From the IMG/VR virus record IMGVR_UViG_3300029107_000017: 4,830 nucleotides of DNA, one strand, 5' to 3'. Numbering within the stretch: the first letter of the stretch is position 1; the number at the start of each line of letters is the position of its first letter. The stretch is from a virus (lineage: Duplodnaviria; Heunggongvirae; Uroviricota; Caudoviricetes). The translations under genes and the position numbers were made by a program. Under the pieces are notes generated by a model. The model was given only the letters and a program-made list of their open reading frames with translations, had not been told where the DNA came from and ran no database searches. This document shows, piece after piece, positions 833 to 4,830 of this stretch.

Positions 833-904
833 GCTGACCTCATTTCCCCTTAACGCCGGGGTAGCGGAACTGTTTGCTGAGAACACCGTGCGGTGTCTTG
901 ATGA

Positions 905-965
905 GTAGAATTTAGAATAACCTAAGAATGATGGTCAAGCTTTTTGTGTAGAAAAACCTAAGTTT
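905..965 (-). promoter_or_regulatory. Putative leftward promoter for the ydfA-like operon, flanked by two operator-like palindromes
   Basis: Read on the - strand: TTGACC (rc of 933-938), 18-nt spacer, TAAATT (rc of 909-914). Palindromes TTTAG-aataac-CTAAG (911-926) and TGTAG-aaaaac-CTAAG (947-962) bracket the -35. No transcript data. Confidence 0.4.
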
Positions 966-973
966 CTTGATGT

Positions 974-1010
974 AAAAAACACAAGTATTTGAAAGTTTGT
1001 GCTTTTTATT
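974..1010. terminator. Weak bidirectional terminator-like hairpin
   Basis: A6 (974-979), stem CACAA (980-984) / TTGTG (997-1001) with a 12-nt loop, then CTTTTTATT (1002-1010). AT-rich 5-bp stem, so predicted stability is low. Confidence 0.25.
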
Positions 1011-1036: not shown

Positions 1037-1444
1037 TTATTTATTTGCGCTTCTTTTGCGAGCTTTGAGTAGTTCTTCAAAAAGTTTGTTGAAATTCTCA
1101 ACTCGAGCACGCATCTCTGACAACAGAGCCTTTTGCTCTGACTCAGGCAGTGCGTCGAACAGTTGAAGCAACTCTTTTTGATCTTCTGTCAGATTGACTG
1201 GCTGATTATCTGGGATCGGTTCGCCTGGTTGCTTATCTTCATCTCCAAAAAGAAGCCAGGTCGGCGAGCACTGAAGCGCCTGGCTCAGTGCGAATAATCT
1301 CTTCCCCGCTGGCTGTGTTTCATCTCTTTCCCATTGAGAAATTGTTACGTGAGCCACTTTGACCAGCTTACCTAATGCGGCCTGAGACAGTTTTAATTTT
1401 TTACGCCTGTATAAGAGGCGAGCACCGAAGGTTTCGTTTTTCAT
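1037..1444 (-). CDS. dicA: DicA-like prophage repressor (XRE-family HTH, 135 aa, no peptidase domain)
   Basis: ORF track 1037..1444 (-). Same length as E. coli DicA (135 aa) and shares long motifs with it as I recall the sequence: SQWER, LFALS..LQCSPTW.LFGDEDKQP, LPESEQ, EMRARV.NFNKLFEELLKAR. Divergent from a Cro-like gene. Confidence 0.85.
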   Translation of the reverse strand: MKNETFGARLLYRRKKLKLSQAALGKLVKVAHVTISQWERDETQPAGKRLFALSQALQCSPTWLLFGDEDKQPGEPIPDNQPVNLTEDQKELLQLFDALPESEQKALLSEMRARVENFNKLFEELLKARKRSANK

Positions 1445-1520
1445 ATTAGGTAATTCTAATTTCTCTTGACTTAGGTTTCTCTACAATCTAGTTTCCTTAG
1501 GAAAATCTAAGGAGTTCGAT
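1445..1520. promoter_or_regulatory. Divergent promoter/operator region between the repressor and the Cro-like gene
   Basis: Three YTTAG-N6-CTAAR sites: ATTAG-gtaatt-CTAAT (1445-1460), CTTAG-gtttct-CTACA (1470-1485), CTTAG-gaaaat-CTAAG (1496-1511), centres about 25 bp apart. Rightward elements: TTGACT (1466-1471), TACAAT (1482-1487), TAAGGAG (1508-1514). Leftward: TAGAAT (rc of 1453-1458) 8 nt before the repressor ATG. Confidence 0.55.
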
Positions 1521-1748
1521 ATGTTGAAAATTGATGCTATAGCGTTTTTTGGCAGCAAAACAAAGCTTGCCAATGTCGCAGGAGTTAGGCTGGCAAGCGT
1601 TGCAGCATGGGGGGAACTGGTTCCTGAAGGTCGCGCGATGCGCCTGCAAGAGGCATCCGGCGGGGAACTTCAGTACGACCCCAAAGTTTATGACGAATAT
1701 CGTAAGGCAAAGCGGGTGGGGCGGTTGAACAATGAAAATCACCCCTGA
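1521..1748 (+). CDS. dicC: Cro/DicC-like small HTH regulator (75 aa)
   Basis: ORF track 1521..1748 (+). TAAGGAG SD with a 6-nt spacer before the ATG. HTH-like segment GSKTKLANVAGVRLASVAAW. Divergent from the DicA-like repressor, as dicC is in Qin. Confidence 0.8.
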   Translation: MLKIDAIAFFGSKTKLANVAGVRLASVAAWGELVPEGRAMRLQEASGGELQYDPKVYDEYRKAKRVGRLNNENHP

Positions 1749-2283
1749 ACAGGTTTGTGAGGCTCTAGATGCCTGGGTATGCCGACCAGGAATGACACAG
1801 GAGCAGGCGACGATATTAATCACGGAAGCATTCTGGGCTCTGAAAGAACGCCCGAACATCGATGTTCAACGCGTCACGTTTAATGATGGCGAGGTTGATC
1901 AACGGGCGCTGGGCGTTAACCGGGTGAAGATATTCGAACGCTGGAAAGCTATCGACACCAGGGATAAGCGGGAAAAATTCACGGCGCTGATTCCGGCAAT
2001 TATGGAGGCTATCCGGATCAGCGATTTCAGGTTGTATTGTGAAATTACTGACGGAAAAAGCATTACGTACATGATCGCCGGGTTAAACAAAGAATATGGC
2101 GATGTGGTGGAGTCCGGGCTGCTTTTTGCGGATCCATCTGTTGTGGAACGTGAGACTGACGAGCTTATAGAAAAAGCTATTGCTTTCAAGCATGCGTATC
2201 GTCAGCAATATCAATATTACTTTGCAGATAAACAAATGTCTGCCAGGGGTTCGTATGAGTATCGATGCACTACGATGGGCTAA
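1732..2283 (+). CDS. YdaT-family protein (183 aa), CII-like regulator or putative toxin
   Basis: ORF track 1732..2283 (+). Overlaps the Cro-like gene's 3' end by 17 nt. MKI... N-terminus and the segment KREKFTALIPAIMEAI resemble Rac YdaT (QREKIQKLIPAILAIL) as I recall it. Confidence 0.7.
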   Translation: MKITPEQVCEALDAWVCRPGMTQEQATILITEAFWALKERPNIDVQRVTFNDGEVDQRALGVNRVKIFERWKAIDTRDKREKFTALIPAIMEAIRISDFRLYCEITDGKSITYMIAGLNKEYGDVVESGLLFADPSVVERETDELIEKAIAFKHAYRQQYQYYFADKQMSARGSYEYRCTTMG

Positions 2284-3781: not shown

Positions 3782-4543
3782 ATGGAGACTGTTTTTGACG
3801 CACTGAAAGCGATGGGAAAAGCCACGTCGGTAGAGCTGGCTGCGCGACTTGATATCAGTCGTGAAGAAGTGCTGAACGAGCTGTGGGAACTGAAAAAGGC
3901 TGGCTTCGTTGATAAAAGCGTATACACCTGGCGTGTGGCTTATAACAACGTTCAGCAGGAACAGCCAGCGCCGGCAGAACTGTCGGAAGAAACCACCACG
4001 GCAACAGTCGCTAAAATTTCGGAGAGCGATTTAACTGCGACGATTGAACAACGTGGACCACAAACGGCGGATGAACTGGCTACGCTGTCCGGTACCACAT
4101 CCCGCAAAGTGGCTTCAACGCTGGCAATGGCAATCAGCAAAGGTCGTCTGATTCGTGTAAACCAGAACGGTAAATTTCGTTACTGCATACCGGGTGATAA
4201 TTTACCAGCCGAGCCGAAAGTTGAATCGGTAGCGGAAACCGATGGTAAAGCCTTTCCTCAGCCAGCAGGTGTTGCGTTACCAGTACAGGAAGTTGCAACA
4301 CAGGAATATATTAAAACAGAAACTGTGGCTGATATTGTGCAATCGTTGCCATCGTTTACTGAAACGCGAGCGGATGACCTGGTTTTACCATCGCTGCATA
4401 TGGCAAACCGCGAATTGCGTCGGGCGAAAAATCATGTCCAGAAGTGGGAGCGTGTCTGCGCCGCGCTGCGGGAACTGAACAAGCACCGGGATATTGTCCG
4501 ACAGATTGTCGATTCCTCCAGTCGTATTGTGTCGGAAAAGTGA
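3782..4543 (+). CDS. Prophage protein of unknown function with two winged-helix-like modules and a charged helical C-terminus (253 aa)
   Basis: ORF track 3782..4543 (+). GGGAGG (3770-3775) with a 6-nt spacer before the ATG. Residues about 4-51 and 84-135 share a G.T..EL....(S/T)R..V...L.....G pattern, suggesting an internal duplication. Confidence 0.8.
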
Positions 4544-4830
4544 TTGCCGGGGGCGCTTATGGCAAAAGTATTTACACAAGAAGAGCGGGAAAAATTAAGG
4601 GGCAGGTTGTTGAACTCGTGCGCCAGAGTGGGCGCGAGACGTTACGACAACTGGAAGCCAAGACAGGTGCGACAAGATATCTGATGAGCATTCTTGCCAG
4701 AGAGTTGGTTGCCAGTGGCGATGTATACAACTCTGGCTATGGGTTATTTCCCTCTGAACAGGCTCGTAAGGATTGGCAAAACGCCCGCAAAAAACTATCC
4801 AGGGCAAAGGTGAAAAAAACGGTTGTGGTT
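4540..4830 (+). CDS. Winged-helix-like protein paralogous to the upstream gene; partial (runs off the window), start ambiguous, possible frameshift
   Basis: The frame with codon starts at 4603, 4606... is open from 4378 to the window end and encodes ...[49 protein letters not shown].... The only start in that frame near the upstream stop is GTG 4540 (GTGA overlap, weak SD). A better-supported ATG at 4559 (GGGGG SD, N-terminus MAKVF like the paralog's METVF) is in another frame and stops at 4682-4684. Confidence 0.5.

What the first reader, a model, noticed from the sequence alone, without database searches (positions are those of the whole stretch)
1445..1520. Tripartite operator between the divergent repressor and Cro-like genes
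Three YTTAG-N6-CTAAR palindromes at about 25-bp spacing overlap both candidate promoters, and the rightmost overlaps the Cro-like gene's SD. This mirrors the lambda OR1-OR2-OR3 logic but with a different half-site, consistent with a DicA-type bistable switch.
Basis: seen in the sequence. Interest (0 to 1): 0.5.

Follow-up and report, generated by a model that had tools for sequence, protein, structure and literature searches.

The report
DicA/DicC prophage switch operators
The three short palindromes between the divergent repressor and Cro-like genes are real and are the right-hand operator of a Qin/P22-type prophage immunity switch, a known kind of element present here as a slightly different specificity variant.

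Summary
Observation confirmed. Three TTAG-N6-CTAA dyads lie at 1445-1460, 1470-1485 and 1496-1511, with centres 25 and 26 bp apart. Two are perfect; the middle one has one core mismatch (CTAC). Chance expects 0.12 such sites in this 76-nt spacer (3 or more in 1 of 5000 shuffles).

Interpretation supported. The flanking genes score as full-length DicA and DicC. The repressor N-domain resembles the P22 C2 N-domain and the Cro-like protein resembles P22 Cro. The three sites sit in the same register from the repressor ATG as P22 OR3/OR2/OR1 and K-12 Qin Oa/Om/Oc. The genetically defined K-12 DicA site Oc has the same TTAG-N6-CTAA core.

Across 14 cross-genus homologues and 31 distinct viral-contig variants, the half-site cores are the best-conserved intergenic positions. 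Two more sites (911-926, 947-962) flank a leftward promoter downstream of the repressor gene.

What differs here is the outer half-site: CCTTAG rather than K-12's TGTTAG. That change tracks the repressor clade, not the Cro-like protein.

Verdict: an ordinary new member of a known kind, low interest. No binding was tested.

The parts
1037..1444 (-). DicA-family repressor gene (135 aa). It has an N-terminal HTH like the P22 C2 N-domain, a short helical C-terminal part and no S24 peptidase domain.
   Evidence: NCBIfam DicA 241.6 bits, full length. Pfam shows HTH_3 only. PDB match to the P22 C2 N-domain, E=1e-21. 63% identical to K-12 DicA.
1445..1460 (.). Site 1 (equivalent to K-12 Oa and P22 OR3): ATTAG-GTAATT-CTAAT. 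It directly abuts the repressor start codon and contains the predicted -10 of the repressor promoter.
   Evidence: Exact core match. Core is conserved or nearly so in the 14 cross-genus homologues and invariant at 7 of 8 core positions in the clade. Same register as P22 OR3.
1453..1458 (-). Predicted -10 hexamer TAGAAT of the repressor (PRM-like) promoter. It would give an mRNA with a leader of about 0-3 nt.
   Evidence: Read from the sequence. Conserved in all homologues except K-12, which has TAGCAT. The K-12 dicA mRNA has a leader shorter than 10 nt (PMC4681348). The P22 record annotates the 5' nt of the RM transcript 4 nt before the c2 ATG. Inferred by homology, not mapped here.
1466..1471 (+). 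-35 hexamer TTGACT of the rightward (dicCp / PR-like) promoter.
   Evidence: At offset +21 from the repressor ATG, against +22 in both K-12 and P22. Conserved as TTGACT or TTTACT in all homologues.
1470..1485 (.). Site 2 (equivalent to Om and OR2): CTTAG-GTTTCT-CTACA. The left arm is good and the right arm is degenerate (CTAC). It lies between the -35 and -10 of the rightward promoter.
   Evidence: One mismatch to the core. Conserved within the window's clade, with mean majority fraction 0.965 at core positions. The right arm is not conserved in the K-12/BL21/Citrobacter clade. Its reverse complement matches the OL2 site in 15 of 16 positions (pair I3).
1489..1494 (+). -10 hexamer TAGTTT of the rightward promoter (TAnnnT, 17-nt spacer).
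   Evidence: Positional homologue of K-12 TATCTT. The K-12 dicC start site was mapped by 5' RACE and Oc overlaps its -10 (PMC3441716). Not called by the generic promoter scan.
1494..1513 (.). Site 3 (equivalent to Oc and OR1): 20-bp palindrome TCCTTAG-GAAAAT-CTAAGGA, core at 1496-1511. It covers the predicted rightward start site and the first bases of the ribosome-binding site.
   Evidence: Exact match. Core conserved in all homologues. Homologous to the K-12 Oc site, where a single-base change abolished DicA binding in vivo (PMC3441716).
1509..1514 (+). Shine-Dalgarno AAGGAG of the DicC-like gene.
   Evidence: Read from the sequence. It lies 6 nt before the ATG at 1521.
1521..1748 (+). DicC / P22-Cro-family gene (75 aa).
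   Evidence: NCBIfam DicC 164.9 bits. Pfam P22_Cro 49.7 bits. PDB 1rzs (P22 Cro), E=6e-7. 81% identical to K-12 DicC.
911..926 (.). OL1-like site TTTAG-AATAAC-CTAAG. It lies between the -35 and -10 of the leftward promoter and overlaps the -10.
   Evidence: Exact match. Conserved in all homologues.
909..938 (-). Leftward promoter (dicBp / PL analogue): -35 TTGACC at 938-933 and -10 TAAATT at 914-909. It drives the ydfA/ydfB/ydfC-like genes.
   Evidence: Promoter scan, 9 of 12 matches. P22 PL has the same TTGACC between OL1 and OL2. DUF1391 (YdfA) lies downstream. dicB is annotated further on in the 98.5%-identical O157:H7 locus.
947..962 (.). OL2-like site TGTAG-AAAAAC-CTAAG, upstream of the leftward -35. 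Its left arm GTAG is a conserved deviation from the core.
   Evidence: One mismatch. Conserved across the clade, including the GTAG arm.
973..1008 (-). A/U-rich hairpin followed by a U run, between the repressor stop codon and OL2. Probably the repressor gene's terminator.
   Evidence: Inverted repeat I10. Fold of -11.2 kcal/mol, z = -3.4.

Best explanation
The 76-bp spacer is the right operator (OR) of a Qin/P22-type lambdoid prophage immunity region.

The 135-aa DicA-family repressor binds as a dimer, through a P22-C2-like helix-turn-helix, to 16-20-bp dyads with core TTAG-N6-CTAA.

Site 3 (1494-1513) is the strongest dyad. It covers the -10/+1 region of the rightward promoter (TTGACT-17-TAGTTT). 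It is the primary repressor site and shuts off the DicC/Cro-like gene and the replication genes behind it. As shown for K-12 Oc, occupancy there also raises transcription of the repressor gene. This may be a direct effect, or it may work by removing RNA polymerase from the overlapping rightward promoter.

Site 1 (1445-1460) abuts the repressor ATG and contains the -10 (TAGAAT) of a weak promoter that makes a leaderless or nearly leaderless repressor mRNA. Occupancy there, by the Cro-like DicC protein first or by excess repressor, turns the repressor gene off. This is the OR3 role.

Site 2 (1470-1485) is a half-strength site over the two -35 regions. It is probably filled only cooperatively.

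The same proteins act on two further sites (911-926, 947-962) around the leftward promoter of the ydfA-ydfB-ydfC(-dicB) operon, which is the OL/PL counterpart.

Mutual repression gives a two-state switch. The repressor has no autocleavage domain, so induction should need an antirepressor (as Rem does in Qin) or stochastic switching, not RecA.

Shown here: the sites, their significance, their conservation, their register, and the protein family memberships.
Taken from K-12 and P22 literature and annotation: the roles of Oc, OR1 and OR3, leaderless dicA, the antirepressor, and bistability.
Inferred: which protein fills which site in this variant, and cooperativity.
For: - The sites exist and are non-random.
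- Protein families: DicA and DicC above curated cut-offs; P22 C2 N-domain E=1e-21 and P22 Cro E=6e-7; Pfam P22_Cro.
- Register: site centres, measured from the repressor ATG, are 8.5/33.5/59.5 here, 9.5/34.5/59.5 in K-12 and 9.5/34.5/57.5 for the annotated P22 OR3/OR2/OR1. TTGACT lies at +21/+22/+22.
- Phylogenetic footprint: in 14 homologues from Escherichia, Citrobacter, Buttiauxella, Enterobacter, Pantoea, Erwinia and Yersinia, the consensus keeps TTAg..aATtCTAA, TTgACT and TTAg......CTAA.
- In 31 distinct IMG/VR variants (repressor 69-100% identical), core half-site columns have majority fraction 0.97-1.00, against 0.92 for spacers and 0.81 for the rest.
- OL pair conserved likewise.
- K-12 data: Oc (TTGTTAG-N6-CTAACAA) binds DicA in vivo, one base change abolishes binding, DicA at Oc represses dicC and is needed for dicA expression, and the dicC start site was mapped (PMC3441716).
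- dicA mRNA is leaderless (PMC4681348).
- DicA represses dicBp, the Rem antirepressor relieves it, and there is DicC-dependent spontaneous switching (PMC10448788).
- No Peptidase_S24 hit in the repressor.
Against: - No binding experiment exists for this variant.
- In K-12, DicA did not bind Oa or Om when each was placed alone in an in vivo reporter (PMC3441716, data not shown there). Sites 1 and 2 may therefore not be DicA sites, or may need cooperativity.
- Conservation of site 1 is partly explained by the -10 inside it. Conservation of the left arm of site 2 is partly explained by the adjacent -35.
- The right arm of site 2 is not conserved outside this clade.
- The rightward -10 is a poor match (3 of 6) and neither start site was mapped here.
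- DicC binding to these sites has not, as far as I found, been shown directly even in K-12.
Confidence: 0.85

Rival explanations
1. Only site 3 is a true repressor operator. Sites 1 and 2 are conserved because they are promoter DNA, not because any protein other than RNA polymerase binds them: the -10 of the leaderless repressor promoter lies in site 1, and the -35 elements of both promoters lie around site 2. The switch would then be a single-operator device.
For: - K-12 DicA bound Oc but neither Om nor Oa in the in vivo assay (PMC3441716).
- TAGAAT lies inside site 1 and TTGACT overlaps site 2.
- The right arm of site 2 is not conserved in the other clade.
Against: - The left arm of site 1 (TTAG, 1446-1449) lies at about +1 to -5 of the repressor promoter. 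No promoter element explains its near-invariance or the perfect dyad.
- P22 has proven repressor/Cro sites at exactly these positions.
- Site 2 recurs, almost base for base and inverted, as OL2 at another promoter in a different position relative to -35. This argues for a protein site rather than promoter sequence.
- The K-12 assay tested isolated sites, so cooperative binding and DicC binding were not examined.
Confidence: 0.12
2. The dyads are chance palindromes in A+T-rich intergenic DNA and have no regulatory meaning.
For: The spacer is 68% A+T and the motif is short and A+T-rich.
Against: - Shuffles that keep dinucleotide content reach the observed count in 1 of 5000 (spacer) and 0 of 1000 (window).
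- Five of the six best matches in the window fall in the two promoter regions that flank the repressor gene.
- The cores are conserved across genera while spacers vary.
- The same core is the genetically defined K-12 operator (PMC3441716).
Confidence: 0.01

Closest known systems
E. coli K-12 Qin prophage dicA-dicC operators Oa, Om and Oc, plus the dicBp operators (Bejar et al. 1986/1988, as cited in PMC3441716 and PMC10448788)
   Same: - Orthologous genes: DicA 63% and DicC 81% identical.
- Same divergent layout, and the same three positions from the repressor ATG.
- Same TTAG-N6-CTAA core.
- Same second operator pair around a leftward TTGACC promoter ahead of ydfA/B/C.
- Repressor without a cleavage domain.
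   Different: - The outer half-site is CCTTAG here against TGTTAG in K-12, at Oc and at both OL sites.
- The spacer is 76 bp against 83 bp.
- In this clade site 3 runs into the ribosome-binding site (CTAAGGAG).
- The middle site has its good arm on the left here and on the right in K-12.
- The gene after dicC is a 183-aa YdaT-like protein followed by replication genes, whereas K-12 Qin is truncated there (ydfX, ydfW).
Salmonella phage P22 OR3-OR2-OR1 / OL with the C2 repressor and Cro
   Same: - The repressor N-domain is similar over about 67 residues (E=1e-21).
- The Cro fold family is the same.
- Three dyads lie in the same register, with TTGACT at the same offset, and the -10 of the repressor promoter lies inside the ATG-proximal site.
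- In P22 the RM transcript starts 4 nt before the ATG.
- OL1 and OL2 are about 35-36 bp apart, flanking TTGACC.
   Different: - The half-site is TTAGG here against TTAAG in P22, one base different at position -4 from the dyad centre.
- P22 C2 is 216 aa with a RecA-cleavable C-domain. This repressor is 135 aa with no Peptidase_S24 hit.
- OR2-OR1 spacing is 23 bp in P22 and 26 bp here.
CP-933P (E. coli O157:H7) PaaR2 / YdaS / YdaT switch (PMC8630535, PMC9986795)
   Same: A cryptic lambdoid immunity region with a leaderless repressor gene, a divergent Cro-like gene followed by a YdaT (CII-equivalent) gene, footprinted OR and OL operator sets, and demonstrated bistability.
   Different: - The repressor (PaaR2) is unrelated and the repeat consensus is different (GTTTAGTAA; four 18-bp palindromes).
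- The repressor operon carries a toxin-antitoxin pair.
- The CP-933P YdaT motif TTGATT-N6-AATCAA is not enriched in this window.
Phage lambda OR1-OR2-OR3 with CI and Cro
   Same: The logic is shared: divergent repressor and Cro genes, three dyads about 23-26 bp apart overlapping PR and PRM, a leaderless repressor mRNA, and a second operator set at PL.
   Different: - There is no sequence relationship between the operators, or between the repressor C-domains.
- The geometry is shifted. Here, as in P22, the ATG-proximal site covers the -10/+1 of the repressor promoter rather than lying between its -10 and -35.
- Induction is not by RecA cleavage.

Membership tests
Qin-type DicA/DicC immunity switch | The repressor is a DicA-family protein (about 135 aa, N-terminal HTH, no peptidase domain). 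| tested here: met
   NCBIfam NF007257, 241.6 bits against cut-off 101, residues 1-135 of 135. 63% identity to K-12 DicA. Pfam shows HTH_3 only.
Qin-type DicA/DicC immunity switch | A divergently transcribed DicC (P22-Cro-like) gene. | tested here: met
   NF007282, 164.9 bits against cut-off 130. 81% identity to K-12 DicC.
Qin-type DicA/DicC immunity switch | Operator dyads with the core of the experimentally defined Oc (TTAG-N6-CTAA), at the Oa/Om/Oc positions. | tested here: met
   Oc sequence from PMC3441716. The outer flank differs (CCTTAG against TGTTAG).
Qin-type DicA/DicC immunity switch | A second operator set at a leftward promoter (dicBp) driving ydfA-ydfB-ydfC-dicF-dicB. | tested here: met
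   Sites at 911-926 and 947-962 around TTGACC/TAAATT. YdfA/DUF1391 downstream. ydfC and dicB are annotated in the 98.5%-identical O157:H7 locus. dicB lies outside the window, and DicF was not detected by Rfam in that locus.
Qin-type DicA/DicC immunity switch | Sequence-specific binding of DicA (and DicC) to the sites, and two stable expression states. | not testable with these tools
   Known only for K-12 (PMC3441716, PMC10448788).
Qin-type DicA/DicC immunity switch | Leaderless repressor mRNA. | not testable with these tools
   Inferred. There is no ribosome-binding site, since the ATG abuts site 1, and a conserved TAGAAT ends 8 nt upstream of the ATG. K-12 dicA is leaderless (PMC4681348).
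P22-type immunity region (C2/Cro) | The repressor DNA-binding domain is homologous to the C2 N-domain, and the Cro is homologous to P22 Cro. | tested here: met
   Pfam P22_Cro, 49.7 bits against 30.2.
P22-type immunity region (C2/Cro) | Three operators in the P22 OR3/OR2/OR1 register. | tested here: met
P22-type immunity region (C2/Cro) | P22 immunity specificity (half-site TTAAG, 18-bp operators ANTNAAG-N4-CTTNANT). | tested here: not met
   All good arms here read TTAG(G/A). The region is therefore P22-like in design but not of P22 immunity.
P22-type immunity region (C2/Cro) | LexA-like (S24) C-terminal domain allowing RecA-mediated cleavage. | tested here: not met
   The protein is 135 aa with no Peptidase_S24 hit. 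PDB similarity ends at residue 69.

The most novel reading that the evidence does not exclude
The outer operator positions (CCTTAG here, TGTTAG in the K-12/BL21/Citrobacter type) define a separate immunity specificity that is read by the repressor and not by the Cro-like protein.

The flank type follows the repressor clade. This includes a helix-2 change next to the conserved Gln: Ala22 here against Arg in the TGTTAG type. Meanwhile the window's DicC is 91-93% identical to the DicC of loci whose repressor is only 67% identical and whose operators are of the other type.

If DicC reads only the shared TTAG core, a Cro-like protein made by one Qin-like prophage could shut off the repressor gene of a co-resident, heteroimmune one. 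That would couple the induction of cell-division inhibitors or Stx-phage neighbours across prophages in pathogenic E. coli.
Probability: 0.2. Interest if true: 0.45.

Novelty: new member of a known kind. Interest (0 to 1): 0.15.

Why it matters
It matters little for discovery. The element belongs to a class described since 1986-88 and revisited in 2012 and 2023.

Its practical value is annotation. This immunity type occurs in about 750 of 5,426 complete E. coli genomes, including O157:H7 and other Shiga-toxin strains, usually labelled only 'helix-turn-helix protein'. Its operators, promoters and OL pair can now be placed to the base.

The repressor-specific outer half-site and the near-identical Cro-like proteins across immunity types give a cheap, testable handle on cross-talk between co-resident cryptic prophages that control dicB-type division inhibitors.

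Tried and rejected
1. A third OL site. I looked promoter-distal of 962, where P22 has OL3, and promoter-proximal of 911. Nothing within two mismatches of the core was found between 880 and 1036 other than the two reported sites. The terminator-like hairpin occupies the P22-OL3 position.
2. The YdaT (CII-equivalent) recognition motif of CP-933P, TTGATT-N6-AATCAA. There were 3 hits at three mismatches against 2.75 expected, which is chance level.
3. Rfam scan of the window and of the O157:H7 locus. Nothing was found in the window, and only sok in the neighbour; DicF was not detected at gathering score.
4. The generic sigma-70 scan did not call either spacer promoter. Promoter assignment rests on homology to mapped K-12 and P22 promoters.
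5. RNA structure in the 5' UTR of the leftward operon. Overall folding energy was no better than shuffles (z = -0.02).
6. Family membership was already unambiguous from curated HMMs and PDB matches.

Full report
WHAT IS IN THE WINDOW

The 4.8-kb window is the early-control region of a Qin-like lambdoid prophage.

Leftward genes:
- a YdfC-like ORF (299-517);
- a YdfB-like ORF (547-684);
- a YdfA/DUF1391 gene (677-832);
- a 135-aa repressor gene (1037-1444).

Rightward genes:
- a 75-aa Cro-like gene (1521-1748);
- a YdaT-like gene (1732-2283);
- a DnaT-domain protein, a lambda-P-like protein and a DUF1627 protein.

The region is 98.5% identical to prophages of E. coli O157:H7 and other Shiga-toxin strains. 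GenBank phage records for 'PPompW' label the two regulators dicA and dicC. In the O157:H7 copy the leftward operon continues to ydfC and dicB. A copy covering at least 80% of the repressor-operator region is present in 751 of 5,426 complete E. coli genomes.

CHECKING THE OBSERVATION

The three dyads are at the stated coordinates:
- site 1, 1445-1460: ATTAG-GTAATT-CTAAT;
- site 2, 1470-1485: CTTAG-GTTTCT-CTACA;
- site 3, 1496-1511: CTTAG-GAAAAT-CTAAG.

Centres are 25 and 26 bp apart. The pattern as written (YTTAG-N6-CTAAR) fits only site 3 exactly. The common core is TTAG-N6-CTAA, exact in sites 1 and 3 and with one mismatch in site 2. Site 3 extends to a 20-bp palindrome with 7-nt arms, TCCTTAG/CTAAGGA.

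Chance is excluded. There are three exact core matches in the window against 0.046 expected, and 0 of 1000 dinucleotide-preserving shuffles reached three. In the 76-nt, 68% A+T spacer there are three sites with at most one mismatch against 0.12 expected, reached in 1 of 5000 shuffles.

The same scan finds TTTAG-AATAAC-CTAAG at 911-926 and TGTAG-AAAAAC-CTAAG at 947-962, just downstream of the repressor gene. They flank a leftward promoter-like site, with -35 TTGACC at 938-933 and -10 TAAATT at 914-909.

This is the position of dicBp in Qin and of PL/OL in P22 and lambda. The P22 record shows the same TTGACC between OL1 and OL2, which lie about 35 bp apart. The spacing here is 36 bp.

Five of the six best core matches in the whole window therefore fall in the two promoter regions on either side of the repressor gene. 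The reverse complement of site 2 (TGTAGAGAAACCTAAG) matches the 947-962 site in 15 of 16 positions (pair I3).

WHAT THE PROTEINS ARE

- The repressor matches NCBIfam 'transcriptional repressor DicA' over its full length: 241.6 bits against a cut-off of 101.
- The Cro-like protein matches 'DicC': 164.9 bits against a cut-off of 130.
- They are 63% and 81% identical to K-12 DicA and DicC.
- Residues 2-69 of the repressor match the solved P22 C2 N-terminal domain (E=1e-21), including entries solved with operator DNA.
- The Cro-like protein matches P22 Cro (PDB 1rzs, E=6e-7; Pfam P22_Cro).
- No Peptidase_S24 domain is detected, and the PDB similarity stops at residue 69.

COMPARISON WITH CHARACTERISED OPERATORS

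In K-12 the site called Oc, TTGTTAGTCATAACTAACAA, was shown genetically to bind DicA. Single-base changes arose spontaneously when the region was cloned in high copy, and one A-to-C change abolished binding in an in vivo repression assay. DicA at Oc represses dicC and is required for dicA expression. The dicC start site was mapped, and Oc overlaps its -10. Two further sites, Om and Oa, were defined from sequence only and did not bind DicA when tested alone (PMC3441716). Oc has the same TTAG-N6-CTAA core as the window's sites.

I aligned three spacers from the repressor start codon:

| Spacer | Site centres | TTGACT offset |
|---|---|---|
| P22 (annotated OR3/OR2/OR1) | 9.5 / 34.5 / 57.5 | +22 |
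| K-12 (Oa/Om/Oc) | 9.5 / 34.5 / 59.5 | +22 |
| Window | 8.5 / 33.5 / 59.5 | +21 |

In the same register the P22 half-site reads TTAAG and the window's reads TTAGG, one base different. So site 1 corresponds to Oa and OR3, site 2 to Om and OR2, and site 3 to Oc and OR1.

PHYLOGENETIC FOOTPRINT

Fourteen homologous loci were aligned, from Escherichia, Citrobacter, Buttiauxella, Enterobacter, Pantoea, Erwinia and Yersinia, with repressors 53-96% identical. The spacer consensus retains TTAg..aATtCTAA (site 1), TTgACT plus tag, and TTAg......CTAA (site 3). The right arm of site 2 is conserved only in the window's own clade.

Within that clade there are 31 distinct spacer variants from viral contigs, with repressors 69-100% identical. 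Mean majority fractions are:
- core half-site columns of sites 1, 2 and 3: 0.996, 0.965 and 0.969;
- the 6-nt spacers: 0.92;
- the remaining intergenic columns: 0.81.

The two OL sites are conserved in the same way, while the DNA between them varies. The deviant GTAG arm of the 947-962 site is itself conserved.

PROMOTERS AND GEOMETRY

The rightward promoter is TTGACT (1466-1471), a 17-nt spacer, then TAGTTT (1489-1494). This is the positional equivalent of K-12 TTGACT-17-TATCTT. The start site should fall near 1501, inside site 3.

The repressor ATG directly abuts site 1 and has no ribosome-binding site. The minus strand reads ATTAGAATTACCTAAT-ATG, with a conserved TAGAAT (1458-1453) ending 8 nt before the ATG.

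K-12 dicA is one of only five E. coli mRNAs found with a leader shorter than 10 nt (PMC4681348). The P22 record places the 5' end of the RM transcript 4 nt before the c2 ATG. I therefore infer a leaderless or nearly leaderless repressor mRNA whose -10 lies inside site 1 and whose weak -35 (GAGAAA, 1481-1476) lies inside site 2.

A protein on site 1 would thus block the repressor promoter. A protein on site 3 would block the rightward promoter.

The two promoters overlap back to back. The 'activation' of dicA by DicA at Oc could therefore be relief of polymerase competition rather than direct contact. That point is open.

MECHANISM

The best reading is a P22-style two-repressor switch.
- The repressor fills site 3 first and, together with the OL sites, silences the Cro/replication and ydfA-dicB operons while sustaining its own synthesis.
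- DicC, once made, fills site 1 and shuts off the repressor gene.
- Site 2 is a weak site, probably filled cooperatively.
- Induction should be by an antirepressor or by noise rather than by RecA cleavage. This is shown for Qin, where Rem relieves repression and DicC-dependent spontaneous switching occurs (PMC10448788).

The assignment of proteins to sites, and cooperativity, are inferences for this variant.

WHAT IS PARTICULAR TO THIS VARIANT

The strong sites here carry CCTTAG/CTAAGG. The K-12, BL21, E. albertii, Citrobacter and Buttiauxella loci carry TGTTAG/CTAACA at Oc and at both OL sites.

The flank type follows the repressor clade. Helix 2 reads S-Q-A-A-L-G-K here, as in P22 C2, and T-Q-R-E/S in the other type. 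It does not follow the Cro-like protein:
- the window's DicC is 91-93% identical to the DicC of loci whose repressor is 67% identical and whose operators are of the other type;
- Pantoea and Enterobacter loci share the repressor and operator type but have a DicC only about 65% identical.

This suggests that the repressor reads the outer positions and DicC reads the shared core. That would allow Cro-type cross-talk between heteroimmune co-resident prophages. It rests on essentially two clades and is only a hypothesis.

VERDICT

The element is the OR of a DicA/DicC (P22-like) immunity region, a long-known kind. It is present here as a distinct specificity variant that has not, to my knowledge, been footprinted. 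Interest is low.

Noticed in passing
window 911-926 and 947-962, with promoter-like site 938-909 (minus strand): Two further TTAG-N6-CTAA-type dyads flank a leftward TTGACC/TAAATT promoter downstream of the repressor gene. This is the OL/PL (dicBp) counterpart of the reported operator. The sites are 36 bp apart and about 500-590 bp from the OR sites.
   Followed up: yes
window 1444-1458 (minus strand): The repressor ATG has no ribosome-binding site and abuts site 1. A conserved TAGAAT ends 8 nt upstream, implying a leaderless or nearly leaderless repressor mRNA, as reported for K-12 dicA and as annotated for P22 c2.
   Followed up: partly
window 973-1008 (minus strand): A 12-bp A/U-rich hairpin followed by a U run lies between the repressor stop codon and the OL sites (-11.2 kcal/mol, z = -3.4). 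It is probably the repressor gene's terminator. Other clade members have different sequences at the same place that also look like hairpins.
   Followed up: partly
window 883-896: The dyad ACACCGTGCGGTGT lies just downstream of the predicted leftward start site. It is conserved as (T/A)CAC(T/C)G..(C/G)GTG(A/T) from Citrobacter and Enterobacter to E. coli loci. It could be a small 5'-UTR hairpin or a protein site. The overall fold of the UTR is no better than shuffles.
   Followed up: partly
window 893-903 and 962-972: The direct repeat GT(G/T)TCTTGATG brackets the two OL sites. No explanation was found.
   Followed up: no
window 1732-2283: A 183-aa YdaT-like (CII-equivalent) gene overlaps the end of the DicC-like gene by 17 nt. 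It matches Pfam YdaT_toxin at E=9e-6 (26.5 bits against a cut-off of 21). The DNA motif recognised by CP-933P YdaT is not enriched in the window.
   Followed up: partly
cross-locus comparison (window against L006, L007, L016 and L003-L005): The region is a mosaic. The Cro-like gene is 91-93% identical between loci whose repressors are only 67% identical. Loci sharing the repressor and operator type can have Cro-like proteins only about 65% identical. This suggests a recombination junction within or near the operator spacer.
   Followed up: partly
L001 (O157:H7 NE92), about 3945-4700: dicB is annotated, but Rfam did not detect DicF upstream of it at gathering score.
   Followed up: no
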